Notes: generated from the sequence alone by a model not told the origin. A stretch of DNA of 64,000 nt from Phormidesmis sp. (GCA_965248535.1 CBDFJR010000002.1:2336001-2400000), one strand, 5' to 3'. Shown: positions 2,003 to 50,285, numbered from the stretch's first letter. Made by a program: numbers and translations.

Positions 2003-4242
2003 CTAGGAGTCGGGATTGGGGTTGAGGAGCACTTGGAAGCGATCGTCTTGCCGAATGCCATCAAAATCTGAGTCTGTTTTTGCCATCTCTCGGCACTCGG
2101 AATATAAGTTGATGGCTTGTTGTAGGGTGGCAATGGCTAAATCAACGTTCTTCTGCAACCCATAACAGCAGGCTTTGTTGTAATGCGTCCTGGCATCATT
2201 TGGCTTGAGCGAGATCGCCCGATCGTAGCTAGCGATCGCGTTCGTCGTTGCGTCCTAAGCTTTGTCAGACAAGCGCCACGCCGCGGTTGTTCCACGCTTC
2301 GTGATAGTCCGGCTTGAATTCCAGGGCTTTGTCATAACTCGCGATCGCGTCGTCGTTGCGTCCTAAGGCAGACAGCGCCACGCCGCGGTTGTACCACGCT
2401 TCGTGATTGTCCTGCTTGAATTCCAGGGCTTTGTCATAACTCGCGATCGCGTCTTCTTTGCGTCCTAAGTCAGACAGCGCCACGCCGCGGTTGTACCACG
2501 CTTCGTGATAGTCCTGCTTGAATTCCAGGGCTTTGTCATAACTCGCGATCGCGTCGTCGTTGCGTCCTAAGGCAGACAGCGCCACGCCGCGGTTGTACCA
2601 CGCTTCGTGCTTGTCCGGCTTGAATTCCAGGGCTTTGTCATAACTCGCGATCGCGTCGTCGTTGCGTCCTAACGCCGCGGTTGTTCCACGCAGACAGCGC
2701 TTTGTCACTCGCGATGCCGCGGTTGTGTACCACGCTTCGTGATCGTCCTGCTTGAATTCCAGGGCTTTGTCATAACTCGCGATCGCGTCGTCGTTGCGTC
2801 CTAAGGCAGACAGCGCCATGCCGCGGTTGTACCACGCTTCGTGATCGTCCCGCTTGAATTCCAGGGCTTTGTCATAACTCGCGATCGCGTCTTCATACCG
2901 ACTCAGGTTGTATAGTGCATTGCCACAGTCAAAACACTCAGCAGCTACCGGATAGGTGGGATCTTGTTTTGCCATTCGACCCAGTTGTTTCAAGATCGCA
3001 GGCACATAGCGCCCCACATCCACCGCGCCCGTTTTCTTCATCTCAATCTGCCCATCCTGTGGCTTCAAGATCTGCTCTGTGGTCATCAAATAGTCCAAGA
3101 CGCGCCGTAACTGCCATTCTTGCCGCCAGCGCCGCACCCCACGCCCCGGCAACAAGCGTTTTGTTGTGGCTTCTAACATCGGTGGCGTTAACCAAAGATT
3201 TAAGCTCCGCAATAGCTCCACCGCATCATAGGCATACACCGCTAACGGATAGCGCTCCACTGCCTTTTTATACTTCTGTCGCCACGTCTCATCCAGCCTA
3301 GGCGAAAACTCCTGATTATTCACCGCCAAACCGCGATTTTGGGCAGTGCCCAAATTCAGTGTGATATTCCGAAACGTGCCGTCATTTCGCCTCGCAATCT
3401 GCCCATACTCCTCCGAGACTCCCCGCAACCCTGCCGCTGCCACGCAGTCTGTCAACAAACTGACAACGGCACCCTCAGACGGCTCCACCAACGAGTAGGG
3501 GTGAAACTGCTGCCAAAACGATCGATACTTCTCCCACTGGAGCTTATCTCGCGGCGATGTGTCCCCCGGCTTATCTGGCTCACGCTCATTTCGCGCCATC
3601 GCAATCACCCGCACATAGCCCAACTTGCCCTGATCTTCAAAATACTTCAACAGTCGCGGCAACCGTTCCTGCACTGGCTCCCGCAGGGGTCGCGCCACCT
3701 CTTCCAGCGCTTTAGGATGACTCTTATAATGAATGCCCGTATACATCCAGCGATTCAGATCATCTAAAAAAAACAGCAGCTTATCGTCAGGGCTAATCTC
3801 ACTGGGGAATTCCTTTGGCACATCTAGCCATTCCCCCGGTCGATCCGCCAGCTTCAGCACCGTCCAGCCCTCCCGGTTGAGCACCTCTGCCAAGTGAGCC
3901 GCTTCCCGCGTCTTGCCCAAGCCCGACTTGCCCAAAATCAAGACCCAGTTCTTTTCACTAAAGGCAATCTCTAGCTCATTACGGATATTGCGATCGGGCT
4001 GGCGCTCTTGATAAGGAATCTTGTAATCAGCCTAGAGCGTTATTTTCATCACCGCCCATGATTTCCTTCAGCAAGTCAGGGGTGTGAGGTTTGAACACCT
4101 TAAACGGGAAGTCGCCAGACGGAAGTTGGCGGAGGCGCTTTGTCTTGCGACGCGCTTCTAACCATTTGGTAGTCCCTAAGATTCCACCTGCGATGGTTCC
4201 GATCAGAGCAAGAATCTTAGTAATGTCGTCAAAATTCGGCAT
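2003..4242 (-). pseudogene. Membrane-anchored P-loop NTPase + TPR-repeat protein, split by frameshifts (possibly assembly errors)
   Basis: ORF 4027-4242 (TM helix) joins 2265-3941 (GKSGLGKT, FFLDD, TPRs) by removing one base near 4030; TPR tail ...YNKACCYGLQ...DFDGIRQDDRF continues in another frame to TAG at 2003-2005. Confidence 0.75.
2200..2920 (-). repeat. Near-identical 102-bp tandem repeats encoding 34-aa TPR units
   Basis: Unit HEAWYNRGVALSALGRNDDAIASYDKALEFKxD repeated about 6 times; copies near 2240-2270 and 2670-2730 are scrambled. Confidence 0.9.
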
Positions 4243-37804: not shown

Positions 37805-38350
37805 ATGTATCAGAAGTTTCGATATCTTCGTATTCATACTTTGGCATTCACAGCATTGTTTTTAATTTGTGCTTGTAATCCCGCGATCGCTGAAAGCAAA
37901 AGCCAGTGGACTTATTTATCACAAGCTAACCTGCCTAGCTTGCAGAAACAGTTACAGCAAAAATACACTAACAATGCTATTCCCATAGACGTGGGAAGAA
38001 TGCGAGTTTTGGCGATCGAACAGAACAATAAATCTCTCTACTTGATTGATACTCGTGTTTCTCTGGAGCCAAATCGAAGGCAATTGAACCCAACGTGTGG
38101 AGCAGCGGGATGCTCGATCATGGGCTATCTCCAAACCGGAAAGAGCTACCAAGAGGTTCTATCCATTTACCTCGATCCTGTTCCACCTCCAGGAAAATCA
38201 CTCATTGAGCCAACAGCAACCCTTCAAAACGGGCTTCCCTGCTTGAACTTCAATCAGCGCAAAATTAAAACCAGGCAAACCGAAGTTGTGCAGTGGTGTT
38301 ACGACGGACAACGCTACCAATTCGTAAATTCAACTCTCCAGCAGCAATGA
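37805..38350 (+). CDS. Hypothetical exported protein / lipoprotein
   Basis: Signal peptide with Cys; CGAAGC motif. Confidence 0.7.
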   Translation: MYQKFRYLRIHTLAFTALFLICACNPAIAESKSQWTYLSQANLPSLQKQLQQKYTNNAIPIDVGRMRVLAIEQNNKSLYLIDTRVSLEPNRRQLNPTCGAAGCSIMGYLQTGKSYQEVLSIYLDPVPPPGKSLIEPTATLQNGLPCLNFNQRKIKTRQTEVVQWCYDGQRYQFVNSTLQQQ

Positions 38351-40218
38351 GCAAACCTCCCCAAACTGTTCAATCTGGTTCCCATCCACTTCAAGATTTG
38401 AGCAACAGCACGACCGGGCTACTCAAATCTGAAGTGGGGTTGATGCTGCTGGTGTGTGCGGCGTTTCTGGTTTTCATGTCGATATTTGATGGTCAAAATA
38501 AAGGCAAGCTGGCACAAGGGCGATTTGGTGGACGTTGGGAGAAATGGTCAGCCGTGCGCCTAGCGAATCGACAAATTCGAGAGCAGGCGCATAATCAAGT
38601 AACGCTCTGGGCTGGAACGCCGAGAGAACTACGCATCGAAGCACCCAGGTTAAGACGATTTTGGGCAGAAACTAGGACGCTACTTTTAGACTCGCCACCC
38701 ACCCTGCATCTTGCTCATGCTCAACAAGGCATCATCGTTTGTGGTGCGCCAAACGCTGGTAAAACTTACAGCGTTATTGATCCGTGTATTCGCGCTGCCG
38801 TTCATCAAGGTATTCCCTGTGTCATTTACGATTACAAGGACGATCAGCTTAAAGCTCATGCAGCTTACGCCGCTGCTCAAGGCTATGAGGTAGCTGTATT
38901 TGCTCCAGGCTATGCCTACAGCAGCGTGATCAACCCACTGGATTTTCTCAGGGACGATGGCGATTCATTGATGGCGCGGCAGTTAGCGATTACGATTAAC
39001 CGCAACGCGCAACGCTTCTCTGGTGGAAAAGAAGACCCATTTTTTGCAGAAGCAGGCGAAAAACTTGTGGAAGGGTGCTTTCTGTTAGCAAAAAGTACAC
39101 CGTATCCCGATATGGTGATGGCATATTCGATTCTTGGGTTGTCAAAGTTAGAAGCACGACTGCAATTTGCCAAAGAGCAAGGGCGATTAGATGAGTTTAT
39201 CGAGGCGAGTTTCCAGCAGTTGTTGCAGTCGGCGGAATCTGAAAAAACGGTGGCTGGAATTCTAGCCACGGCTGAACGCGCGATCGGGTCTTTTGTCCGT
39301 CGTGATTTGCTTCCTAGCTTTCTGGGCAAATCCAGCATCTCGCTCGATATGCAGGGCAAGCAAATGCTGTTTCTACAAGTGGATTTACAGAAGCAGGATG
39401 TCGTCGCACCTCTGATCGCCGCAGTGTTGCATCTTGTGATCATGCACAATTTCTCAGGCATTCGGAAAAAACCGTTATTAGTTTCCCTTGATGAAGTTCG
39501 GACCGTTTATCTTCCCGATCTGCCCAAGTGGGTGAATGCGTTTCGCTCCTTTGGGTTTGTTCCACTGATTGGCTATCAAAACTTTGCCCAAATTCAGGAG
39601 ATTTATGGGCGTGATGCCTCAAAAGCGTTGTTTGCGGGGTGTGGAACAAAGGTGTTTTTCAATCCCAGAGATGAAGAAACGGCGCGAATGGTTTCTCACT
39701 ATCTGGGTGAGGAAGAAGTCTTGTTAAAAACACGATCGCGCAGCTACGGACGCAACGGTAGTTCGAGTCAATCTGAACAGTACCACAAACGCCCACTGCT
39801 GACGGTTGAACAACTTCTCAAGTTTGATCAGGGTGAATGTGTCGTGGTCAATCCTGGCTACAAAGGCTCTGGAGAAGCTTCCGTTCCACTGCGGACTAAA
39901 ATCAAGCTTCCAAAACAGGACGATGTGACTCAGCGAAGAAGTGAGGAACTCTGGAAGCTCGTACAACAAAGATTAGAGAAACGAACATCTAGTCATAGTC
40001 AAGATCATCAAGCACTGCGTGAAGCGCTACAGATTCGTCGAGCAATGGCAGAACGGCTATTTCCATTGCCGTTTAAGGAAACAGAGGATGAGTTTGATAC
40101 GGATACTTCGCCAGAACCTAGTTTCGACTCAAGAACAGATCCGCCAAACGTTAACGTTCCCGCACCTATCAACATTTCTACTCCTGTGATCACAGATGAT
40201 CTCAAGGAGTTTGTCTAA
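38347..40218 (+). CDS. Type IV coupling protein (VirD4/TraD-like)
   Basis: GAPNAGKT, YDYK, INPLD, SLDE, QNFAQIQEIYG. Confidence 0.9.
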   Translation: MSKPPQTVQSGSHPLQDLSNSTTGLLKSEVGLMLLVCAAFLVFMSIFDGQNKGKLAQGRFGGRWEKWSAVRLANRQIREQAHNQVTLWAGTPRELRIEAPRLRRFWAETRTLLLDSPPTLHLAHAQQGIIVCGAPNAGKTYSVIDPCIRAAVHQGIPCVIYDYKDDQLKAHAAYAAAQGYEVAVFAPGYAYSSVINPLDFLRDDGDSLMARQLAITINRNAQRFSGGKEDPFFAEAGEKLVEGCFLLAKSTPYPDMVMAYSILGLSKLEARLQFAKEQGRLDEFIEASFQQLLQSAESEKTVAGILATAERAIGSFVRRDLLPSFLGKSSISLDMQGKQMLFLQVDLQKQDVVAPLIAAVLHLVIMHNFSGIRKKPLLVSLDEVRTVYLPDLPKWVNAFRSFGFVPLIGYQNFAQIQEIYGRDASKALFAGCGTKVFFNPRDEETARMVSHYLGEEEVLLKTRSRSYGRNGSSSQSEQYHKRPLLTVEQLLKFDQGECVVVNPGYKGSGEASVPLRTKIKLPKQDDVTQRRSEELWKLVQQRLEKRTSSHSQDHQALREALQIRRAMAERLFPLPFKETEDEFDTDTSPEPSFDSRTDPPNVNVPAPINISTPVITDDLKEFV

Positions 40219-40658: not shown

Positions 40659-42335
40659 ATGATTCATTCAACTGTGAGTCCGAGTGATGCAGATGCTGCT
40701 CAACGTCAAGTCGATCAACTGTTCAGCATTCTGCAACAAATGCTCCAGGACACGATGCAATGGCTTGCCGCTCGAAGTCAGCAACCACTTAAGCAAGAGG
40801 GCGTATTGCGGATTTGGATGGGAAATGGAAAAGACAATCGCATCCTACGCCAAGTTTACGGTCCGATGGCGAATGGCAAAAATCGTAATGACCTCACGCC
40901 TGAACGATTACGATCGCTGCTCAATGCCCTTCAAGAACCCGTGACTGAAGGGGCTGACCTGGCTCGATATGCTAAACGGAACCCTGCGATCGAGATCAAA
41001 ATCGACGATGTAACCCTATTTCGTCAGGAACGGGATGGCGTTGTTACGGTCAATCAGATCCAGCAACAGATTCAGAATGCGCCGACTCAATTACAACCCT
41101 CACCCCCACAAGTAGAGCCGTCTGAAGTCTCAGATCAACCGTTGCCGTCCTCCGAACAAGTGCAGCAAATCGCTCATGTTGCTCGACAGCTCATGAATCC
41201 CTTGGGCGAATCAGAGTCTCCATTGCTGACGAAGGCTGGATTCGGCGACTTCACCTTGGAGTATGACGTAGAAACCGATGTGTCGACGATTTCTAAAGGA
41301 CAGCAAGCGATCGTGCGGGATCACGCCGGACAACTTGAGAACTTAGGGGTGATGGTGGCAGATTCAGAAGTCTTCCGATCGCTGGGTGAACGAATGCTGA
41401 GAACGTCCGCTATTCAGCCATCAGAGCGTAAACAACAAGAAGATATTCAAGATCGATCAGGTCGGCAAATACTAGAAGTAGTTCCAAGATCACAAAACAC
41501 ATCATCTTCTGAGATCGCTAGAGTAGCAGACCGACAAATTGCACAACTTCCAAATCAACAACTTCGGCAATTCCTCCAGCGAATGGTTCAAGGAACGGCA
41601 ACCTGGCTCAATCAGGCGTTGTATGATTGGCAGCTTAAGACGATCGCGCATACGGCACTGCAAGCCTTTCAGCGAGGCTACGATCGCACCGCCGAGGAAT
41701 CCTATCGAGTTGGAGAATTTACCGTCAGTCGGCAACCAGAGAATCAGTTTGAAATCAGCGATCGGGCGGGTGCCGTGATGCAATTTCAAACGGCATCCGG
41801 CAGAGTTAAGCCGATATCCATTGGCAATTCGCTTCGAGAAGTTTCAGGCGATCGCACCACCCAACCTTTCATCCACAACGCGATCGTTCAGCTTTCTTCC
41901 AATGTGCCGCAAGGACTACCTGAAGCGGATTTCGCCTTCCGGGTGAGTGAAGCAGAACAAACGATTCGAGATTTTTTAGCATACACGAAGACTTCGGTGT
42001 GGGACTACGATCGAGGCAAATTTCGACTCGAAATGGTGAATAACCAAGTGCTAATCACCTCAAAACAGGATGGACGCGGACAAATTCATGGAGCCGCAAA
42101 AGTCATGCAGAAAAACAACCGAGAGAAATTGGTTCCGCAACCGACTCGACTCACCTGGAAAGACCTGGAACATATCAATCACATTCGAGACAGATTGAGA
42201 GTCAGGATTGAAGCTGACCAAGCCCAAAGCCCGACAAAGCACCCTGTCCCCATTCAACCCACGTCCCAGAAACCCAAACCGCGTCAAGTTTCACAACCAT
42301 CCCGATGGCAGCCCAAACGAGTTGAGCTAGAGTAA
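40659..42335 (+). CDS. Hypothetical element-borne protein (558 aa)
   Basis: Long ORF ending in a basic tail ...PKRVELE. Confidence 0.75.
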   Translation: MIHSTVSPSDADAAQRQVDQLFSILQQMLQDTMQWLAARSQQPLKQEGVLRIWMGNGKDNRILRQVYGPMANGKNRNDLTPERLRSLLNALQEPVTEGADLARYAKRNPAIEIKIDDVTLFRQERDGVVTVNQIQQQIQNAPTQLQPSPPQVEPSEVSDQPLPSSEQVQQIAHVARQLMNPLGESESPLLTKAGFGDFTLEYDVETDVSTISKGQQAIVRDHAGQLENLGVMVADSEVFRSLGERMLRTSAIQPSERKQQEDIQDRSGRQILEVVPRSQNTSSSEIARVADRQIAQLPNQQLRQFLQRMVQGTATWLNQALYDWQLKTIAHTALQAFQRGYDRTAEESYRVGEFTVSRQPENQFEISDRAGAVMQFQTASGRVKPISIGNSLREVSGDRTTQPFIHNAIVQLSSNVPQGLPEADFAFRVSEAEQTIRDFLAYTKTSVWDYDRGKFRLEMVNNQVLITSKQDGRGQIHGAAKVMQKNNREKLVPQPTRLTWKDLEHINHIRDRLRVRIEADQAQSPTKHPVPIQPTSQKPKPRQVSQPSRWQPKRVELE

Positions 42336-42364: not shown

Positions 42365-42829
42365 ATGGCACGCTGGGAGTTTGAGCAATGGCACGCGGCA
42401 CAGGCTGCAAGAGAGATGGCGAGAAATCCCTTTCCGCTATTGATTGTCGGGATTTTGGCTACAATCTTTTCGGCTGCACCAATGGGGAACCGGGAACAAA
42501 CGCCGACTCCAGAGGAATATGTGAATCGTGCTGAATCCTGTCAGGTGGGTCTAACGTGCGATGGGGCACTGAATGATGTCCAGCAAGCGATCGAGCTTGA
42601 TCCAAAATTGGCACGAGCTTACGTGATTCGAGCCAGTTGGACATTAAAGCGACACGGTTTAGTTCAGTCTGCTCTGCAAGATTATCGAAAAGCCCGATCG
42701 CTCTATCAGGAACAACAGCAGGATTTTGAAGCGGGTGAAATCAGCCGTCGGGCAATCTCGCAACTTGAGCGAGGAGAAGCCCTCGCCTGCTTACCCACGA
42801 ATCCGATAAAACCCTTTGATTGTCTGTAG
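42365..42829 (+). CDS. TPR-containing membrane-anchored protein
   Basis: ALNDVQQAIELDPKLARAYVIRA; GGAGG RBS. Confidence 0.75.
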   Translation: MARWEFEQWHAAQAAREMARNPFPLLIVGILATIFSAAPMGNREQTPTPEEYVNRAESCQVGLTCDGALNDVQQAIELDPKLARAYVIRASWTLKRHGLVQSALQDYRKARSLYQEQQQDFEAGEISRRAISQLERGEALACLPTNPIKPFDCL

Positions 42830-43230: not shown

Positions 43231-44850
43231 ATGGAATGGGTGGAATTTCTGGAGGAGGTGGCAACAGAACACGAACTCTCCACTGATCAGAAGCAAGCTT
43301 TCATTGCACGGTTTGACCTTAAGAATTCTGCCAAGACCGAGAAACAGATTGCGAACCAAACGAAAGACAGCGAGGGTAACGATCTCTTCGCGGGAGAGGC
43401 TGCGTTCAAGAAGCTGATGACCCAGGTGTATCGCAAGCTACAACCGCTTTGTCCAGAACTGGAAACCTCATCGCGAGGAAAACAGCCGAAGCTAAAAGCT
43501 TTCTTGCAGGCAAAGTTTAAGCAGCGTCAGTCGATTCCAGATCCGCCCATTCCTAGAAGTAGCTCAGAAGCGATTCCTGAATCCTCCACACTTGAGTTGC
43601 CCCCGCTCAGAAATCAACAGAATATACCAGGCAATGGGCAGGGAATCCAGATCAACGACGCACAAGCGCCAGTCATAGCTGGTGCTAATCCAGTGGTGAA
43701 CATACATCTACGTGAGGGTAGGGCTGACACTTATAAAAAGACAATTTTGATGTTAGCAGCTAGTCCTGAAAGCGCTACAAAGCCACGATGGAGAGAAGAA
43801 CTCAAAAAAATTAGGGGCGCGGTAGATAGAGCTAAAAGCGATGGAAGATTTGAAGTACAAGACAGGTCTTATATAGGCTCATCCGATCTGTCTGAGGAGC
43901 TAACAAAGCTCACACCTTTTGTTATTCACATTTCTGGATGTGTAGATGGAGTCGAGAGGCTATTTCTCAAAGATACTGGTCAAAATATTGACAATAGTAG
44001 CCGAAAGGAATTGATAGGTGATCTGTTCAAGGAGCACGTAGAGGCAAAGAAAATAGATTGTGTCATTCTGAGCGGCTGCTACCTAGAAGAACAGACTAGA
44101 GAAATTGTTCAGCATATTAACTTCGTAATTGGAATTACTGCTGATCTCGAAGAAGTACACGCTGTCCAATTTCTAAATGAATTCTATTATCAGCTAGCTT
44201 CAGGTCGAGAAATAGAGGCTTCATATCGTCTCGGTTATAACCTTATTAAAAGAGAAGGTTGTTCTGAAGAACTTTCCTTACCCCGACTTTTTACTAAAAA
44301 TGATGAGGTAAGACGTAGAGATTTAGAAAAAGAGTTAGATATTTGCCTTAAGCAGATAGAGAAGGATCCGAGCAATGTACAACTCCGGAAGAAGAAAGCC
44401 AGTCTATTAACAGATTTAGGTCGTATAGATGAAGTAGACGATGCCTATGAAAAAGTATCTTCACTTGATCCTGAAAACCCTAGCATTCGAGTTCAACAAG
44501 GAGATGCGCTAGAGCAATTAGGAGATCATAAGAAAGCAAATGCTGCTTATGAAAAAGCCCTTGAGCTAGACGAGAAAGATTACAAAGTTTGGTGGAAAAA
44601 GGCTAGAGTACTTGTCAAAGCTGGAAAGAATATGGAGGCTGGAGAATGTTACAAAAACGCTCTCTCGCTTCTGCCGCCTTCGCCAGACAATTATGTAATC
44701 TGTAGAGAATATGGTAATGCGTTAGGCAGACTGGAGCAATTTTACGAAAGTATACTGCTATACCAAACATCGCTGTGCTTACAGCCTAACTACCGCATTG
44801 CTAATCATGACAAGAAGCAGGTATACAAAAAAATCTACGCCAAAAAATGA
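43231..44850 (+). CDS. HTH-like N-domain + CHAT (caspase-like) domain + TPR protein; candidate retron partner
   Basis: TILMLAASP, EELKKI, VIHISGC, VILSGCY, FVIG, FLNEFYYQLASG CHAT pattern; about 4-5 C-terminal TPRs. Confidence 0.8.
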   Translation: MEWVEFLEEVATEHELSTDQKQAFIARFDLKNSAKTEKQIANQTKDSEGNDLFAGEAAFKKLMTQVYRKLQPLCPELETSSRGKQPKLKAFLQAKFKQRQSIPDPPIPRSSSEAIPESSTLELPPLRNQQNIPGNGQGIQINDAQAPVIAGANPVVNIHLREGRADTYKKTILMLAASPESATKPRWREELKKIRGAVDRAKSDGRFEVQDRSYIGSSDLSEELTKLTPFVIHISGCVDGVERLFLKDTGQNIDNSSRKELIGDLFKEHVEAKKIDCVILSGCYLEEQTREIVQHINFVIGITADLEEVHAVQFLNEFYYQLASGREIEASYRLGYNLIKREGCSEELSLPRLFTKNDEVRRRDLEKELDICLKQIEKDPSNVQLRKKKASLLTDLGRIDEVDDAYEKVSSLDPENPSIRVQQGDALEQLGDHKKANAAYEKALELDEKDYKVWWKKARVLVKAGKNMEAGECYKNALSLLPPSPDNYVICREYGNALGRLEQFYESILLYQTSLCLQPNYRIANHDKKQVYKKIYAKK

Positions 44851-44880
44851 TAATGTTTACGTAGTGAGGTACTATCTACG

Positions 44881-45101
44881 GTAGAGCATCTGTAGAAACT
44901 ATTAATTTCCATTGACTAAGTGCGATGGTGTATTCCGAAGAAAACTATAGCCCCCACAGTTTAAAGTTCAAAGGGGTGCTACCCTTGTGTAGTGAGCTAC
45001 CACGGGTTAGGCAGAGAACGTAAATACGTTCTACAGATGTTCTGTTTCTTGTAAGAAAGAATCATTCAGTGGCTCTTCGCGAAAAGTTCCTGACTAGTTT
45101 T
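44881..45101 (+). ncRNA. Putative retron msr-msd RNA region
   Basis: Non-coding gap just upstream of the RT, with 15-bp inverted repeat 44883-44897/45029-45043, short IR 44941-44947/45095-45101 and several stem-loops; boundaries uncertain. Confidence 0.65.
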
Positions 45102-46221
45102 GAAAATGTACATTCGCGGGTCTGAAGTCAGCTCAACGCTATTTCTATGTCAGAGCTGTGATGAGCTGAGAAAACTTTTTTTCGATCTCAAAGAACCAAG
45201 AGACGTAGCTGACCTCCTAGAAGTTTCTTATGGTAAGTTGATTTATCATATCTCAAGACTCCCTGAAAACAGGAGGTATGTAGATTTTTCAATCCTCAAA
45301 AAGTCGGGAAAATCTCGAATAATATCAGCTCCTTGTACACCATTGAAAATTTTACAGAGAAAGCTGAGTCAAGTTCTTTATAGTGTCTATGAACCGAAAG
45401 TGACCGTACATGGTTTTGTGCCTGCTAGAAGCATTTTGACAAATGCAGAACAGCACGTACACAAAAGGTTTATACTAAACATTGATTTAAAAGATTTTTT
45501 TCATAGTATCCATTTTGGACGAGTCCGAGGGATATTTACGAAGCCACCTTACAATCTTTCCAGCGAAGTTTCCACGACCTTGGCTAAAATTTGTTGCTAT
45601 TTGGGAAGGCTACCGCAAGGCGCTCCAACATCGCCAATCGTTTCTAATATGATCTGTGCGCGCATGGATAGCGAACTGCGAAAGTTGGCGCAAGAATTCA
45701 AATGCACATGCTACACAAGATATGCTGACGATATAACCTTCTCTACAACTCTATCAAAATTTCCAGGCGAACTAGCATATACAGAAATAGAGGTTGATAC
45801 GGATGTATCAAAAATTGCTTTAGGAGCAAGACTGAGATTGATAATTCAAAATAATGGTTTTGAAGTTAATGAGAGTAAGGTTCGACTACAGTACAAGAAT
45901 CAACATCAGGAAGTCACAGGCTTAACTGTTAATAAATTTCCTAATGTGAAACGGAGTTTTGTACGCGAAATTAGCTCCATGCTTTATGCCTGGGACAAAT
46001 TTGGATTAGAATCGACAGAGCAAAGATACCACGCTAAGTATGCTCAGGATATCGATAAATCTGGTCATAAACCCCCTCCGTTTAAAGAGATTCCTTCATT
46101 TGAGGAGGTATTGCGAGGAAAGATTAATTTTCTCGGTATGGTTAGAGGCAAAGATAACGAAATTTATCGCACGTACTCAGAATGGTTTCGTGCGCTTTCA
46201 AAAAGAGAGTCGGCTAATTAG
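45100..46221 (+). CDS. Retron-type reverse transcriptase (Ec67-like RT, no fused effector)
   Basis: KKSG..R.I.AP, HGF, region X NAEQH, DLKDFF, LPQGAPTSP, YTRYADD, region Y VTG; start may be ATG 45106. Confidence 0.93.
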   Translation: MKMYIRGSEVSSTLFLCQSCDELRKLFFDLKEPRDVADLLEVSYGKLIYHISRLPENRRYVDFSILKKSGKSRIISAPCTPLKILQRKLSQVLYSVYEPKVTVHGFVPARSILTNAEQHVHKRFILNIDLKDFFHSIHFGRVRGIFTKPPYNLSSEVSTTLAKICCYLGRLPQGAPTSPIVSNMICARMDSELRKLAQEFKCTCYTRYADDITFSTTLSKFPGELAYTEIEVDTDVSKIALGARLRLIIQNNGFEVNESKVRLQYKNQHQEVTGLTVNKFPNVKRSFVREISSMLYAWDKFGLESTEQRYHAKYAQDIDKSGHKPPPFKEIPSFEEVLRGKINFLGMVRGKDNEIYRTYSEWFRALSKRESAN

Positions 46222-46259
46222 TAGTTGCAGCTTAACCTAGCATGACAGCGAGCTAGGCA

Positions 46260-46437
46260 ATTTTCTGCACATTAGACAAAAACTGCTAGCTACTACCTCT
46301 CCTAGATCGCTATCCTCAATACCATCTCTCACCGCAATCGCGCCACGCTGTATCCCACAATCGTACATCTCGGCGGAACCGCAGCCGTCCGAGGCATGGT
46401 CGATGCCATGCGCGAAGTCTGCAACCAGTGGAAGTAA
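46260..46437 (+). pseudogene. 3' remnant of a helical-repeat protein gene (repeat copy 1: 46360-46437)
   Basis: ...NRATLYPTIVHLGGTAAVRGMVDAMREVCNQWK*, with an upstream in-frame stop. Confidence 0.6.
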
Positions 46438-46487
46438 TGATAGAACGTTCAAGCAGGCTAAAATACAAACACTTTTCGAGGTGAATC

Positions 46488-46766
46488 ATGATTGAAATCA
46501 CGATCGAGGAAATCTCAGAAGATCTGTCCGCCTATCTACAGCGAGTTCAGGCAGGAGAAAGCTTTGTCGTGTTGCAAGCAGGAACCCCCGTTGCCCAAGT
46601 TGTGCCACCGCAGCCGAAAGTGAAATCGGATCGGGGAAAAGATTTTCTAGAATCCCTAGCCAAATTTCAAGAGGAGATGCTTGCTGAAGGGATTGATCTC
46701 GACCCCGACGAGATCTTTAAAGATGTCAGAGATCGCACTCCTGCCCCCGAACGTCCGAGGTGGTAG
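46488..46766 (+). CDS. Phd/YefM-family antitoxin
   Basis: LSAYLQRVQAGESFVV...PVAQVVP; GAGG RBS. Confidence 0.88.
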   Translation: MIEITIEEISEDLSAYLQRVQAGESFVVLQAGTPVAQVVPPQPKVKSDRGKDFLESLAKFQEEMLAEGIDLDPDEIFKDVRDRTPAPERPRW

Positions 46767-47182
46767 ACTTGCGCTTTCTTCTTGACACGAACACGATCTC
46801 AGAACTATTCAGGCTTCAGCCCAACTCATCTATTGCAACAAAATACGCGCAAAATATCGATGATATTGCGATCGCATCTGTGACCTGGCATGAGCTACTT
46901 TACGGCTTTCATCGTTTACCAACTTCTCGAAGAAAAGAAGAATTGGGCTTCTTCCTGCGTCAGATTATCCGCCCCAACGTTTCGATCCTAGATTATGGTG
47001 AGGACGAAGCAGAGTGGTTCGCAAGTGAGCGGGCAAGGCTCACCGGAACGGGACGAATGCCTTCGTATGCAGACGGGCAAATTGCAGCAATCGCTGCTGT
47101 CCACAATCTTATTCTCGTCACTAGAAATGTTTCTGATTATTCTGATTTTTCAGGGTTAGCGATCGAGAACTGGTTTGAATGA
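46760..47182 (+). CDS. VapC-family PIN toxin
   Basis: LLDTNTISE, WHE, DGQIAAIA, LVTRNVSD. Confidence 0.92.
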   Translation: MVDLRFLLDTNTISELFRLQPNSSIATKYAQNIDDIAIASVTWHELLYGFHRLPTSRRKEELGFFLRQIIRPNVSILDYGEDEAEWFASERARLTGTGRMPSYADGQIAAIAAVHNLILVTRNVSDYSDFSGLAIENWFE

Positions 47183-47339
47183 TTTTGCAGCGATCGCTGG
47201 ATGACATGAAAGATCTTTTGCGATCGCAGTAGTACCGATCAGGTTGACTTGGCTTGTCTAGTCACTCTACTTCGCAATTACTGAAAGCGACAGCAACTCC
47301 TTGGTCTCAAACCCGAATAAAAACAGCGGCTCATTCAAC

Positions 47340-47471
47340 TCCTCAACATTGCCTATTTTTGACTCACTCATCGCAGCCACCGCAATTCACTGGGGACTAC
47401 GCCTAGTCACTCGCAACGAAGAAGACTTCGACAGAACGGGACTCACGATTATGAGTCCGTTTAACCTTTAA
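47340..47471 (+). pseudogene. VapC C-terminal remnant
   Basis: PIFDSLIAATAIHWGLRLVTRNEEDFDRTGLTIMSPF. Confidence 0.75.
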
Positions 47472-47475
47472 CTTG

Positions 47476-47553
47476 ATCGTACATCTCGGTGGAGAAGCCG
47501 CCATCAGAAGCATGGTCGATGCCATGCGCGACATCTGCCAACAATGGAAGTAG
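47476..47553 (+). repeat. 78-bp repeat copy 2 (homologous to 46360-46437)
   Basis: IVHLGGEAAIRSMVDAMRDICQQWK*; 22-nt identical core gcatggtcgatgccatgcgcga. Confidence 0.9.
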
Positions 47554-48539: not shown

Positions 48540-50285
48540 CTACCGCAGTTTCTGCCGGGTTTTCTGGCGCTGTCGTTGTTGAGCTTGATGTCTTCGAGAA
48601 GTGCGCTCCGGTTGATACGCTGCCTGAACTGTCAGTTTGATATAGGCATTCGTCTTATCATCTCCTTGAACCTCTCGCATCCACTGAACATACGGACTTT
48701 GCTGGAGCAGTTGATTGACGGCTTGCCGAAGTTCTCGTGAGGGTAACTTTTCTCGTTTTCCGTCTGAAATTGCCAGTCGCACCACTTTCTCATCCTGCTT
48801 AACGGGATTAGATTCGTTGATGCGACCGCAGTAATCCTGCCAATTTAGAATTATTTGTGGGGGTTGCTTTGCGTTGGCGGGAGAGGCTGACTGCTTTGGG
48901 GTGGCAGATATCGCAGCATCAGGACGACCGTGCAAGCCGTCGAGATTGCGTACATTGTCAGGAATCCGCAAATTCTGACCCATCCGGGCTTGATCGGAAT
49001 CGGCTGGCGGAGTTGATTCACTGATTCGGTTAGCTGCTTGACTTGTTTCTGCTGCTGTTGGCTCTGAATTGCTGACTGCTTGATGGCTTGCCGACTTTGA
49101 GTTTTGATTTCGGCAAGGTCTTGGTTGAGTTTGGTGTTTGTGGTTTGGAGAGACGCGATCGCTGCTTTGAGATCCTTAAGGATTTGCTGAGATATCGGCA
49201 GACTCTCCTGAAGTTCCTCCAAAATCAGATTCATCTGCGGTGTGATCGTCTCGTTCTGTTGCTGAAAGCTGAATAGATGCTGATATAGATTCTCTAGTTG
49301 AGTTTGAATCTGAGATTGATGGGTCTCCAATTGAGGTTGTAGCTGCCCCTCTGGAGTCAGATTCCTCACTGATTCCACTAAGGTTTGAATGGGTTTCAGC
49401 TTCGGTTCGAGTTGCTGAAGGAGTTCCAGATTGTCGATCAAGGTCTGAAGCGATTGAGTCGTTGGGACTGAGTTCTGTTTTTCTAATTTCGATTTGGCAG
49501 CTTGTCTCATTGCGTCGCTCATAATTTTCTCCTAGTTGGAATTGGACACGGTTCCAGGTATAGCGTTTGCCGAGTTTGTAGCCTGGGAAGGCGATGCCAT
49601 TAAGCTTGTAAGAAATGCCTGCGTTGCCTGTATTGACTTGGCGTAATCGGCTCTCGACTCCATAGTTCGCAAGGCGTTGTCTGAAGTCGTCTAAATCGGT
49701 TGAGGTTGAGAGTACATCGTCGATCGCGACTTGTAGCCGCACCCGAACACTCGGTTCTCCCGTCTGATGAAATTGGCGAACTTCATTCACCGTTGGCGCT
49801 GTTACGTCAGTTTCCCAACTCGACGGCACGGACTGAAGTTGGTAGTCCTGCTCTAGTTTGCGAAGCACGAGTTGCGCTTGGCGATAGTCGAGCCAGCCGT
49901 TGACCATCGTGCCGTCGAGCCGCGATCGGGCAATCACCAAATGCACATGATCGTGTTGTGTATCGGTGTGTCTGACCATCACGAATTGGTTGTTGTCAAA
50001 GCCCATTTCGATCAGGTAGTCTTTGGCGATCGCGTTCCACGTTTCCGCTTCTAGATTTCGCCCAACCTCAACGCTCAGACTGGTGTGGCAGACCACAACT
50101 TGGGCGAGATTGCGGGGCGATCGCCTTTGTTGACGTTGTACCGAGAGATTGAATTCAGCGACTAATTCTGAAAGAGCGATGCCTTCCATGTTGCCGCCGA
50201 TACGCTCGGCTCCGGTCTTGCTCAAGACATAGCGGAGACACCCGTAGAAATCCTGCCCTTTGGTGATTTTGGCAAGCATAGTCAA
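48540..50285 (-). CDS. MOBP-type relaxase; single premature TAA at 49176-49178
   Basis: N-terminal Tyr region, HTSLS, HTDTQHDHVHLV; ORFs 49176-50285 and 48540-48983 share a frame with only that stop between them. Confidence 0.85.
48851..49522 (-). CDS. Coiled-coil + TM mobilization accessory protein nested in the relaxase gene
   Basis: AGGAG RBS, 223-aa Q/L-rich heptads, C-terminal TM helix. Confidence 0.8.
   Translation of the reverse strand: MSDAMRQAAKSKLEKQNSVPTTQSLQTLIDNLELLQQLEPKLKPIQTLVESVRNLTPEGQLQPQLETHQSQIQTQLENLYQHLFSFQQQNETITPQMNLILEELQESLPISQQILKDLKAAIASLQTTNTKLNQDLAEIKTQSRQAIKQSAIQSQQQQKQVKQLTESVNQLRQPIPIKPGWVRICGFLTMYAISTACTVVLMLRYLPPQSSQPLPPTQSNPHK

What the first reader, a model, noticed from the sequence alone, without database searches (positions are those of the whole stretch)
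43231..46221. Candidate new retron system: HTH-like/CHAT/TPR protein + ncRNA + stand-alone retron RT
Seen: a co-directional unit of a ~540-aa CHAT-TPR gene, a structured 250-nt gap and a 373-aa RT with retron motifs NAxxH, YADD and VTG, inserted in the conjugative element next to TA modules. Established: retrons are RT + msr-msd + effector anti-phage systems, and RTs resembling Ec67 often carry a fused effector. This RT stops right after the thumb and is followed only by a gene remnant. Inference: the upstream caspase-like/TPR protein is the separate effector or sensor. I do not recall a CHAT-TPR effector among the described retron types.
Basis: partly seen in the sequence, partly recalled or inferred. 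Interest (0 to 1): 0.9.

Follow-up and report, generated by a model that had tools for sequence, protein, structure and literature searches.

The report
Retron with pseudo-caspase TPR partner
A cyanobacterial mobile element carries a retron (reverse transcriptase plus its structured RNA) wired to a separate modular protein with a dead caspase-like domain and a TPR tail, a pairing that recurs in related cyanobacteria and that I did not find described among retron types.

Summary
Gene A (43231-44850, 539-541 aa), a 249-nt gap and a complete stand-alone retron RT (45106-46221; NAEQH, YADD, VTG) lie co-directionally between a T4SS coupling protein and a relaxase, beside a Phd/PIN pair. The RT scores best against PADLOC type XI, then XII and I-C, but matches only their RT part. 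All 120 listed homologues (53-100% identity) are 325-448 aa, so it is not truncated. The gap holds a retron-like ncRNA: 15-bp a1/a2 repeats, a 5-bp extension helix and an msr hairpin. About 89-91% of cells pair, against 34-55% in slid controls, and the model found the RNA upstream of the RT in 15 of 15 untrained loci. Gene A's middle domain has a caspase/CHAT fold (SAVED-CHAT, E 1.8e-9). The catalytic His survives in only 2 of 37 family members, against 29 of 29 non-retron paralogues. Gene A then ncRNA then RT recurs in all six other sequence-distinct loci with room, in differing flanks. Partner N-termini swap (HTH-like, EAD4, trypsin, active CHAT); sister lineages use Schlafen-TPR partners. 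Best reading: a new two-gene variant of type XI-like retrons, with the TPR as the coupling module. Function is untested.

The parts
43231..44850 (+). Gene A: modular retron partner, 539 aa from ATG 43231 or 541 aa from GTG 43225
   Evidence: ORF. There are 36 strong homologues (E <= 7.6e-75) sharing the core at aa 171-541. It lies directly upstream of the RT in the six other sequence-distinct loci that have room.
43231..43560 (+). N-terminal helical domain, HTH-like; this is the variable module position
   Evidence: No Pfam hit. The Atlas lead is HTH_VMAP-M9, score 0.87 with 184 shared features. AF2 pLDDT 82.5. The best VIA-align matches are LuxR/GerE/NarL and sigma region 4 HTH domains, Z 5-6, rmsd 2.4-2.7 over about 64 aa. 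Foldseek gave nothing at E <= 0.001. The same module occurs in 8 of 36 homologues; the others carry EAD4, trypsin or an active CHAT here.
43735..44310 (+). Pseudo-CHAT domain (caspase fold), aa 171-362
   Evidence: AF2 pLDDT 90.1. Foldseek hits: SAVED-CHAT 8tl0 at E 1.8e-9 and TM 0.74, then caspase-6 and MALT1. His column: H in 2 of 37 family members, and the window has C. Cys column: C in 35 of 37. Of the non-retron cyanobacterial paralogues, 29 of 29 keep both residues.
44311..44850 (+). C-terminal TPR module ending in the PNYRxAxxxKK..Y tail (aa 363-541, plus the stop codon)
   Evidence: Pfam TPR families at E down to 6e-13. It is colinear end to end (26-28% identity, E 1e-18 to 2e-21) with the TPR module of the Schlafen-TPR partners in L006 and L007, including the same C-terminal tail.
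44883..45043 (+). Retron-type ncRNA (candidate msr-msd), 161 nt
   Evidence: Covariance model R1 scores 124.9 bits here. Fold z is -3.74. Rfam has no match.
44883..44897 (+). a1 inverted repeat (AGAGCATCTGTAGAA)
   Evidence: Pairs with 45029-45043: 15 bp including one G-U. The 12 modelled pairs all show double changes across 18 sequences, and 11 of 12 do so across 16 untrained sequences.
44899..44903 (+). 5' arm of the extension helix (CTATT)
   Evidence: Pairs with AATAC at 45023-45027. In untrained loci this helix is 94.9% paired, with double changes in 3 of 5 pairs. In the window the outermost pair is a C-C mismatch.
44909..44928 (+). Conserved msr hairpin (CCATTG, 8-nt loop, CGATGG)
   Evidence: 97-98% of cells pair, and A-U to G-C swaps occur in 7 of 17 sequences at one pair.
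44929..45022 (+). Variable central region with hairpins (candidate msd template)
   Evidence: Sequence and length vary between loci. In the window it is predicted to form hairpins. Its assignment as msd rests on position only.
45023..45027 (+). 3' arm of the extension helix (AATAC)
45029..45043 (+). a2 inverted repeat (TTCTACAGATGTTCT)
45106..46221 (+). Stand-alone retron reverse transcriptase, 371 aa from ATG 45106 or 373 aa from TTG 45100
   Evidence: RVT_1. PADLOC RT-Protease_XI at 5.5e-134 covers model positions 5-324 of 510. The NAxxH, YADD and VTG motifs are invariant. It is the only copy of this family in the genome.

Best explanation
This is a complete, horizontally carried retron of the clade that includes types XI, XII and I-C. 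In this lineage the effector function sits not on the RT's C-terminus but on a separate protein encoded just upstream.

Shown here:
- The RT is whole and carries the retron motifs.
- A covarying, a1/a2-flanked ncRNA lies between the two genes.
- The pair plus the RNA travels as a unit through different genomic contexts.
- The partner has a constant core, a caspase-fold domain without the catalytic His followed by a dedicated TPR module, and a swappable N-terminus.

Inferred:
- The RT copies the central part of the ncRNA into msDNA.
- The RT-msDNA complex is held by the partner's TPR module. This is the one module shared with the Schlafen-TPR partners of sister lineages.
- The complex keeps the partner quiet until a phage disturbs the msDNA or the RT.
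- Release, or oligomerisation through the pseudo-caspase scaffold, then switches on whatever sits at the N-terminus. In relatives that is a trypsin or CHAT protease, or an EAD4/EAD10 adaptor that recruits an effector.
- In this window the N-terminus is an HTH-like helical domain. It may bind DNA or dock a factor encoded elsewhere.

The expected outcome is abortive infection or growth arrest.
For: RT identity. PADLOC retron models score XI 445.9 bits, XII 420 and I-C 394.9, all matching only their RT part. The NAxxH, YADD and VTG motifs are invariant in 40 homologues.

Not truncated. The best 120 homologues are 325-448 aa.

ncRNA.
- A 15-bp a1/a2 repeat.
- Model R1 gave 18 hits in 87 sources (828 kb). 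Seventeen lie just upstream of an RT on its strand. The 18th, in L083, lies just downstream of gene A and is cut by the contig end.
- 15 of 15 untrained loci gave hits (16 in all), all just upstream of the RT on its strand.
- 90.8% and 88.6% of cells pair, against 34-55% with slid partners. 19 of 20 and 15 of 20 pairs show double changes.
- The extra helix is 94.9% paired.

Coupling.
- Gene A, ncRNA and RT occur in the same order in the window, L002, L081, L082, L084/85, L086 and L087. L083 is cut at the ncRNA.
- Only these two genes are shared between loci. The flanks hold PurT, ChpXY, DnaJ or TnpB.
- 19 of 36 gene A homologues have the same longest-contig length as a listed RT homologue, an indirect sign.
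- Pairwise identities of RT and gene A correlate, r 0.92 over 15 pairs and 0.72 without the near-identical pair. The pairs are not independent.
- The coupled RTs form one clade with SH-aLRT 100.

Partner anatomy. CHAT fold. His lost, 2 of 37 against 29 of 29. N-termini among 36 homologues: 8 HTH-like, 6 EAD4, 8 trypsin, 3 full CHAT, 11 short or unassigned. L081 has Trypsin_2 plus EAD10, with a Trypco1 ORF upstream.

TPR as the constant. Schlafen-TPR partners stand upstream of sister RTs in L006, L007, L149 and L151, with a colinear TPR module and the same tail. Relatives fuse Schlafen, trypsin, TIR, Mrr or HisKin-conflict domains directly to the RT.

Mobile and defence context..
Against: No experiment stands behind any functional step; msDNA, binding, toxicity and defence are all unshown.

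- The window's partner has no recognisable enzymatic domain: the N-terminus has no Pfam family and the CHAT-like domain lacks His. What does the killing here is unknown.
- No paralogue of the N-terminal domain was found elsewhere in the genome that could serve as a docking partner.
- The branching G of the msr could not be assigned. Where most relatives have G in AAGTAT, the window has C (44899), as do L015 and L153. The outer pair of the window's extension helix is a mismatch.
- The partner family is small and rare. None of 400 other sampled cyanobacterial genomes has an orthologue, and about 34 of the 150 best representatives cover the core.
- Many equally close stand-alone RTs lack any TPR partner and instead have a downstream ORF of no known family. 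The TPR coupling is therefore lineage-specific.
- Several close RT homologues on long contigs (P0003, P0004, P0006) have no listed gene A homologue of matching contig length. That search scored only the 7999 best candidates.
- The tree is a quick search with SH-aLRT only and a midpoint root.
Confidence: 0.68

Rival explanations
1. The roles are reversed. The TPR module is the phage sensor, binding a phage protein as TPR sensors do in STAND/Avs-type systems (recalled, not tested). The RT-msDNA is then the downstream effector or amplifier, rather than the guard that restrains the partner.
For: TPR arrays are generic protein-binding surfaces. The partner evolves faster than the RT, 42-49% against 61-74% identity to the window, as sensors under arms-race selection often do. 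The window's partner lacks an enzymatic effector domain.
Against: The TPR module is the most conserved part of the partner. It keeps a fixed length and C-terminal tail even between the pCHAT-TPR and Schlafen-TPR families. That fits a constant internal ligand such as RT or msDNA better than a variable phage target. Relatives place classical effectors (trypsin, TIR, Schlafen, Mrr) on the RT or on the partner's N-terminus.
Confidence: 0.15
2. The unit is real as a family, but this copy is an effector-less or regulatory derivative. The HTH-like N-terminus would make the partner a DNA-binding regulator, for example of the conjugative element or of itself, and the locus would give no abortive-infection defence.
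For: There is no enzymatic domain in the window's partner. The N-terminus weakly resembles LuxR and sigma-4 HTH domains. The window has C at a mostly conserved G and a mismatch in the extension helix. The unit lies inside a conjugative element.
Against: The HTH-like variant is not a one-off. It occurs in 8 of 36 homologues at 39-83% overall identity, with intact frames, which implies selection. Both ORFs and all RT motifs are intact. The C variant of the RNA recurs in L015 and L153, with a compensating change in L153.
Confidence: 0.12
3. Gene A and the RT are unrelated neighbours: a stand-alone RT plus ncRNA retron that happens to sit beside one of the many cyanobacterial CHAT/TPR proteins.
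For: CHAT-like domains of this kind are very common in cyanobacteria: 136 of 401 genomes match at E <= 1e-10. Many sister RTs work without a TPR neighbour.
Against: The same order and spacing recur in every sequence-distinct locus with room, in unrelated flanks. The partner family is otherwise not found in 400 genomes. Loss of His is specific to the RT-linked family. The two genes' identities correlate.
Confidence: 0.03
4. The RT is a decayed type XI retron that lost its fused protease, leaving the 'remnant' downstream.
For: The best PADLOC hit is RT-Protease_XI, matching only model positions 5-324 of 510. A non-coding stretch follows the RT.
Against: The best 120 homologues end at the same place, and the C-terminal residues are conserved. 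The downstream 46222-46487 has no protease or other Pfam signal and holds a dispersed 93-nt repeat.
Confidence: 0.02

Closest known systems
Type XI retron (Mestre et al. 2020, PMC7736814; passages read)
   Same: The RT belongs to the same neighbourhood: the best PADLOC model is RT-Protease_XI at 445.9 bits. In the quick tree the clade sits in a 23-row group that includes trypsin-fused RTs. Trypsin-like proteases also appear in this system, in 8 of 36 partner homologues.
   Different: Type XI is defined by a trypsin-like protease fused to the RT's C-terminus. Here the RT is stand-alone, and the protease, when present, sits at the N-terminus of a separate pseudo-CHAT-TPR protein. Type XI was reported without a recognisable ncRNA; here a covarying a1/a2 RNA is defined.
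[quoted passage not shown]
   Same: The theme is the same: type XI-like RTs that lack the protease, pair with stand-alone accessory proteins, and have an a1/a2-flanked candidate ncRNA upstream of the RT.
   Different: Their accessory proteins are WYL-domain or DnaB_C-like proteins. The words TPR, CHAT, caspase, tetratricopeptide and cyanobacter do not occur in that text. No WYL or DnaB_C protein neighbours the window's RT. That paper's supplements were not examined.
Type XII (RT-TIR) and type I-C (RT-Toprim, Ec67/Eco2) retrons
   Same: They are the second and third best PADLOC and NCBIfam models. TIR-fused relatives appear in the same tree.
   Different: Those are single-protein fusions. NCBIfam scores fall below the curated cut-offs (360 against 600, 334.5 against 450) because the C-terminal domain is missing.
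EAD-coupled conflict systems of multicellular bacteria (Kaur, Burroughs, Iyer, Aravind 2020, PMC7159879; passages read)
   Same: The same parts list appears in partner homologues: EAD4, EAD10, Trypco1, trypsin, CHAT and TPR. The logic is the same: a constant core with swappable or recruited effectors, mostly in filamentous cyanobacteria.
   Different: Those systems are built on NTPase cores (MoxR-vWA, GTPases, STAND), and the only RT link reported is to DGRs. The passages I saw describe no retron RT-ncRNA core. The window's own protein carries no recognised EAD.
SAVED-CHAT (PDB 8tl0) and the TPR-CHAT protease of type III-E CRISPR (Craspase; architecture recalled, not checked)
   Same: A caspase-fold CHAT domain used in nucleic-acid-triggered immunity. 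SAVED-CHAT is the best structural match.
   Different: Those CHAT domains are active proteases with a His-Cys dyad. Here His is replaced. The domain order is CHAT then TPR, and the partner is a retron RT rather than a cyclic-nucleotide sensor or a Cas effector.

Membership tests
Retron (RT + msr-msd ncRNA + effector) | RT with the retron-specific NAxxH and VTG regions and a YADD catalytic box | tested here: met
   NAEQH at 115-119, YADD at 208-211 and VTG at 272-274. All are invariant in 40 homologues. The top PADLOC hits are retron RT models at E down to 5.5e-134.
Retron (RT + msr-msd ncRNA + effector) | Structured ncRNA directly upstream of the RT, closed by a1/a2 inverted repeats | tested here: met
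   a1 at 44883-44897 and a2 at 45029-45043. Covariation: 90.8% and 88.6% of cells pair against 34-55% slid. 15 of 15 untrained loci have the RNA upstream of the RT.
Retron (RT + msr-msd ncRNA + effector) | Conserved accessory or effector gene or domain | tested here: met
   Gene A lies upstream of the RT in the six other sequence-distinct loci with room, in differing flanks.
Retron (RT + msr-msd ncRNA + effector) | Production of branched msDNA primed from a 2'-OH of a conserved G | not testable with these tools
   The branching G could not be assigned from the alignment. No RNA run is listed for the organism.
Retron (RT + msr-msd ncRNA + effector) | Anti-phage defence phenotype | not testable with these tools
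   Needs cloning and phage challenge.
Type XI retron (Mestre 2020) | RT of clade 8 | tested here: inconclusive
   The best model is RT-Protease_XI, and the RT groups with trypsin-fused RTs in a quick tree with 86% SH-aLRT. No reference clade-8 sequences were on hand to place it formally.
Type XI retron (Mestre 2020) | Trypsin-like serine protease fused to the RT C-terminus | tested here: not met
   The RT ends 4 residues after the part aligned to model positions 5-324 of 510. Pfam finds only RVT_1. The best 120 homologues are 325-448 aa.
TXI_C2like / TXI_noncan_h (Toro 2026) | WYL-domain or DnaB_C accessory protein within two genes of the RT | tested here: not met
   The neighbours are gene A (TPR only by Pfam), a 154-aa ORF with weak TPR hits, Phd and PIN. 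There is no WYL or DnaB_C hit.
CHAT / caspase-like peptidase | Caspase-hemoglobinase fold | tested here: met
   AF2 pLDDT 90.1. Foldseek: SAVED-CHAT at E 1.8e-9 and TM 0.74, then caspase-6 and MALT1 at E around 1e-4.
CHAT / caspase-like peptidase | Catalytic His-Cys dyad | tested here: not met
   The His column holds C in the window and H in only 2 of 37 family members. The Cys column holds C in 35 of 37. Of non-retron paralogues, 29 of 29 keep both.
CHAT / caspase-like peptidase | Match to Pfam PF12770 | tested here: not met
   No hit at E <= 0.1. Among homologues, PF12770 is recorded only for the three that carry an extra, active N-terminal CHAT.
EAD-coupled conflict systems (Kaur 2020) | Effector-associated domain on the core protein, with a cognate copy on an effector | tested here: inconclusive
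   EAD4 occurs in 6 of 36 homologues and EAD10 in L081. The window's protein has none recognised, and no paralogue of its N-terminal domain is in the genome.

The most novel reading that the evidence does not exclude
A retron lineage has evolved a dedicated TPR adaptor that plugs RT-msDNA surveillance into the modular, death-domain-like effector-recruitment network (EAD4, EAD10, Trypco1, trypsin, CHAT) of filamentous cyanobacteria. A catalytically dead caspase would serve as the proximity or oligomerisation scaffold, making this a bacterial counterpart of pseudo-caspase-regulated cell-death platforms, triggered by a reverse-transcribed DNA. The same TPR adaptor would carry Schlafen nucleases in sister lineages, giving a general 'retron-TPR' coupling principle in place of direct RT fusions.
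Probability: 0.3. Interest if true: 0.8.

Novelty: new variant of a known kind. Interest (0 to 1): 0.66.

Why it matters
Retron types are defined by what the RT-msDNA module is wired to, and the type XI neighbourhood is the least understood. It had no recognised ncRNA until 2026 and has no known mechanism.

This locus and its relatives offer three things:
- A well-supported ncRNA model for the cyanobacterial branch of that clade.
- A natural experiment in which the same RT-ncRNA core is coupled to effectors either by direct fusion (trypsin, TIR, Schlafen, Mrr) or through a separate TPR adaptor.
- A link between retrons and the EAD/Trypco/CHAT conflict systems described for multicellular bacteria.

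If the TPR module proves to be the RT-msDNA docking site, it would be a portable handle for attaching chosen effectors to retrons. The pseudo-caspase would become a testable case of a dead protease acting as an immune scaffold in bacteria.

Tried and rejected
- Complex prediction (RT alignment A1 with gene A residues 363-541 of A2) never ran. The job was not sent on. One search gave no usable answer. There is therefore no computational test of RT-TPR binding.
- Rfam: no family matched the gap (the two hits at E 4.9-7.1 lie inside gene A and are chance).
- Promoter and terminator scan: counts were not above shuffles. One promoter-like site at 44807-44834 is only a lead.
- Foldseek on the N-terminal model: nothing at E <= 0.001.
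- A word-based search with the N-terminus alone found only itself and P0122.
- Own-genome search for N-terminal paralogues: none.
- Earlier scan notes: nothing by place or by sequence.
- Sequencing runs: no RNA holder is listed.
- The metagenome scan with the gene A alignment gave only 7 loci.
- The careful tree search was unfinished after 428 s, so the quick tree is reported.
- I considered that the G-to-C difference at 44899 disables the RNA. I rejected this as a firm claim because the same variant recurs in L015 and L153.
- Whole-system callers (DefenseFinder, PADLOC rules) were not available; only the PADLOC HMMs were scanned.
- Supplementary tables of Mestre 2020 and Toro 2026 were not opened. 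They could list these cyanobacterial RTs or their neighbours.


Full report
WHAT IS THERE. Gene A runs 43225/43231-44850 (+), 541 or 539 aa. The RT runs 45100/45106-46221 (+), 373 or 371 aa. Between them lie 249 nt (database forms P0121 of 539 aa and P0001 of 371 aa).

The RT has Pfam RVT_1 (E 9.8e-22). It carries NAEQH, YADD and VTG, all invariant in an alignment of 40 homologues. Gene A has TPR repeats at about aa 390-520 and no other HMM hit in Pfam, PADLOC or NCBIfam.

The unit sits between a TraG/VirD4-type coupling protein (38293-40218) and a MobA/VirD2 relaxase (49176-50285, minus strand). A Phd/PIN pair follows it at 46488-47182. G+C is 0.39-0.40 over 44001-46000, against 0.46-0.50 around it. 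It is therefore cargo of an integrated conjugative or mobilisable element in a cyanobacterium. The window is G000:C2:2336001-2400000 of a 5.03-Mb genome.

THE RT IS A WHOLE, STAND-ALONE RETRON RT. Against PADLOC it scores best with RT-Protease_XI (445.9 bits), then RT-TIR_XII (420) and RT-Toprim_I-C (394.9). In each case only the RT part matches, for example model positions 5-324 of 510. NCBIfam gives Retron_TIR and Ec67-family hits below their cut-offs for the same reason.

A search among proteins of 205-653 aa gave 7994 hits. The best 120 have 53-100% identity and are 325-448 aa long, and those with a source name are cyanobacterial. Their C-terminal residues are conserved to the end. The RT is thus not a truncated fusion. 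The 266 nt after it have no Pfam signal. They contain a roughly 93-nt repeat with three more copies in the genome, one at window 47476-47552. The genome holds one RT of this family.

THE GAP ENCODES A RETRON-TYPE ncRNA. A 15-nt inverted repeat, 44883-44897 with 45029-45043, closes a 161-nt element. That element folds better than all 200 shuffles, z -3.74. Rfam has nothing.

Upstream regions of 12 RT loci share three things: the arms, whose sequences differ but stay complementary; a conserved hairpin (CCATTG/CGATGG, 44909-44928); and a variable centre. A covariance model built from them gave 18 hits in 87 sources (828 kb, both strands). Twelve were the training loci. The other six were L015, L011, L083, L026, L012 and L010. 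Five of those lie on the RT's strand just upstream of it. The sixth, in L083, follows gene A and is cut by the contig end.

On 15 loci fetched later and never used in training, the model hit 15 of 15. There were 16 hits, with two in tandem in L148, and each lies just upstream of the RT. In the first set 90.8% of cells form pairs, against 34-55% with partners slid by 1-3 columns, and 19 of 20 pairs have changes on both sides. In the untrained set the figures are 88.6%, against 34-52%, and 15 of 20.

A further 5-bp helix (CTATT 44899-44903 with AATAC 45023-45027) is 94.9% paired in the untrained set. I could not assign the branching G. The window has C where most relatives have G, as do L015 and L153.

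GENE A IS A THREE-PART PROTEIN WITH A DEAD CASPASE IN THE MIDDLE. Thirty-six homologues (E <= 7.6e-75) share a core of aa 171-541. An AF2 model of aa 168-362 has pLDDT 90.1.

At the catalytic His position, however, the family has H in only 2 of 37 members, and the window has C. The catalytic Cys is kept in 35 of 37. In 29 non-retron cyanobacterial paralogues of the same domain, 29 of 29 keep SGHG and NAC. I therefore call it a pseudo-CHAT.

The N-terminus of the window's protein (aa 1-112) has no family by HMM. The protein atlas points to HTH_VMAP-M9 with a score of 0.87, which is a lead only. Its AF2 model (pLDDT 82.5) finds nothing with Foldseek. With VIA-align it finds LuxR/GerE/NarL and sigma region 4 HTH domains at Z 5-6. 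That is below the level that excludes a common helical arrangement.

Across the 36 homologues the N-terminus varies:
- 8 are HTH-like.
- 6 have EAD4.
- 8 have a trypsin domain with intact CAHV and GxSG motifs, as seen in the alignment.
- 3 have a full CHAT with HFDGHG and SACxSG.
- 11 are short or unassigned.

L081 has Trypsin_2 plus EAD10, and a Trypco1 ORF overlaps its start.

THE PAIR IS A CONSERVED, MOBILE UNIT. Gene A, ncRNA and RT occur in the same order in several places. These are L002 (Nodosilinea nodulosa PCC 7104) and the metagenome loci L081, L082, L084/L085 (identical scores), L086 and L087. L083 ends inside the ncRNA. Of the 7 metagenome loci found with gene A, 6 have the RT and the seventh is cut.

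All-against-all BLAST of ORFs from these loci finds only gene A and the RT shared. The exceptions are a weak PIN match and a small ORF upstream of gene A shared by L002 and L085. The flanks hold PurT, ChpXY, DnaJ, a P-type ATPase or TnpB.

Indirectly, 19 of 36 gene A homologues have the same longest-contig length as a listed RT homologue. Pairwise identities of the two genes correlate, r 0.92 for 15 pairs and 0.72 without the near-identical pair; the pairs are not independent.

In a quick IQ-TREE of 81 RT domains the coupled RTs form a clade of 7 rows with SH-aLRT 100. That clade includes L001, whose upstream side is cut off. L086 was left out because its RT is cut, and L085 was left out as a duplicate of L084. 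The clade lies in a 23-row group (86%). That group holds trypsin-fused RTs (L014, L017, L018, L022), Schlafen-fused L008 and Mrr-fused L009. It also holds other cyanobacterial RTs. The careful search did not finish.

THE WIDER PATTERN. Of 51 C-terminal extensions of related RTs, 15 are trypsin, 6 TIR, 4 HisKin-conflict, 2 Schlafen AlbA_2 and 1 Mrr_cat; 23 have no Pfam hit.

In 401 sampled cyanobacterial genomes, 20 have an RT at E <= 1e-60. None but G000 has a gene A orthologue. The best other hit covers only the CHAT-like domain, at E 6.4e-28. Of 15 such RT loci fetched:
- 2 have an upstream Schlafen_AlbA_2-TPR gene (L149, L151), as do L006 and L007.
- 8 have a downstream ORF of 210-335 aa with no Pfam family.
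- 3 have neither.
- 2 are longer fusions.

The TPR modules of gene A and of the Schlafen-TPR proteins align end to end at 26-28% identity and share the PNYRxAxxxKK..Y tail. An exhaustive profile search found about 34 representatives among the best 150 that cover the whole core in one stretch. None is fused to an RT.

HOW IT MOST LIKELY WORKS. Shown: a complete retron RT, a covarying a1/a2 ncRNA, a co-inherited partner, loss of the caspase His, and swapping of N-terminal modules.

Inferred: the RT makes msDNA from the central part of the RNA. The TPR module is the only part common to both kinds of partner. It docks on RT-msDNA and keeps the partner off. Phage interference with the msDNA or RT frees or clusters the partner through the pseudo-caspase scaffold, which activates the N-terminal module.

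In the window that module is an HTH-like domain whose action is unknown. It could bind DNA or recruit another factor, but no cognate domain was found in the genome. The rivals are a sensor role for the TPR, an effector-less regulatory derivative, chance adjacency and a decayed type XI retron. They are weighed in their own sections.

WHAT IS KNOWN. Mestre et al. 2020 (passages) define type XI as a clade-8 RT fused to a trypsin-like protease, without a recognisable ncRNA. Toro 2026 (abstract, section 15 part 1, section 16) describes protease-less XI-like lineages with WYL or DnaB_C partners and candidate ncRNAs. The words TPR, CHAT, caspase, tetratricopeptide and cyanobacter are absent from its text. 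Kaur et al. 2020 (passages) describe EADs, trypsin and related modules on NTPase cores, and mention RTs only for DGRs.

Five full-text searches found no paper that couples a retron RT to such a partner:
- retron with type XI, protease and TPR
- retron with tetratricopeptide, reverse transcriptase and cyanobacteria
- retron with CHAT
- retron with Schlafen
- retron with TPR

Passages were checked. Supplements were not examined, and subscription-only papers are outside the library.

VERDICT. This is a real, conserved, apparently undescribed two-gene variant of the type XI-like retrons. It fails the defining type XI feature, the fused protease, and the accessory signatures of the 2026 lineages, so I file it as a new variant of a known kind. 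Function is unproven. The window's own copy lacks an obvious enzymatic effector, which is the main open question.

Noticed in passing
window 46341-46433 and 47476-47552: A roughly 93-nt dispersed repeat lies in the spacer after the RT and again just after a PIN-gene remnant. Two more copies (80-88% identity) lie elsewhere in the genome, at G000:C5:2184951-2185043 and C2:2201473-2201565.
   Followed up: partly
window 46488-47182 and 47301-47471: An intact Phd/YefM antitoxin and PIN toxin pair follows the retron directly. It is followed in turn by a 56-aa fragment matching only the C-terminal end of a PIN domain.
   Followed up: partly
window 38293-40218 and 49176-50285(-): A TraG/VirD4-type coupling protein and a MobA/VirD2 relaxase bracket the retron and the TA genes. 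Several large ORFs between them (for example 40659-42335, 558 aa) have no Pfam family.
   Followed up: partly
L006:3727-4740, L007:3653-4735, L149:2706-3773, L151:3875-4963(-): A second two-gene architecture: a Schlafen AlbA_2 plus TPR protein directly upstream of the ncRNA and a stand-alone RT (50-53% identity to the window's RT). L008 and L043 fuse the same Schlafen domain to the RT itself.
   Followed up: partly
L139, L140, L143, L144, L146, L147, L148, L150; also L003-L005 (Nostoc): A third architecture: ncRNA, a stand-alone RT, then an abutting or overlapping downstream ORF of 210-335 aa with no Pfam family. This is a candidate unknown effector.
   Followed up: partly
L148:3689-3842(-) and 3984-4168(-): Two tandem copies of the ncRNA model lie upstream of one RT, at 70.9 and 56 bits.
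   Followed up: no
L081:79-405: A Trypco1 (trypsin-co-occurring domain 1) ORF overlaps the start of the trypsin-EAD10-pCHAT-TPR partner, making that relative a three-gene unit.
   Followed up: no
L002:2790-3224 and L085:2989-3408: Where gene A lacks a long N-terminus, a roughly 140-aa ORF of no known family abuts its start in both loci (32.5% identity over 120 aa). It may be a split-off N-terminal module.
   Followed up: no
L141 (G041:C1:451072-452121): This RT homologue carries an in-frame TAA and appears as two ORFs of 260 and 86 aa, so it is probably a broken copy. Its ncRNA still scores 83 bits.
   Followed up: no
L153:1336-3609(-), L049, L068, L074, L079, L009: Further RT fusions occur in the same family: RT-AAA_5 (757 aa), RT-HisKin-conflict (four Bacteroidota loci) and RT-Mrr_cat.
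   Followed up: no
window 42365-42829: A 154-aa ORF directly upstream of gene A has weak sub-threshold TPR hits. It is not shared with the other gene A loci.
   Followed up: partly
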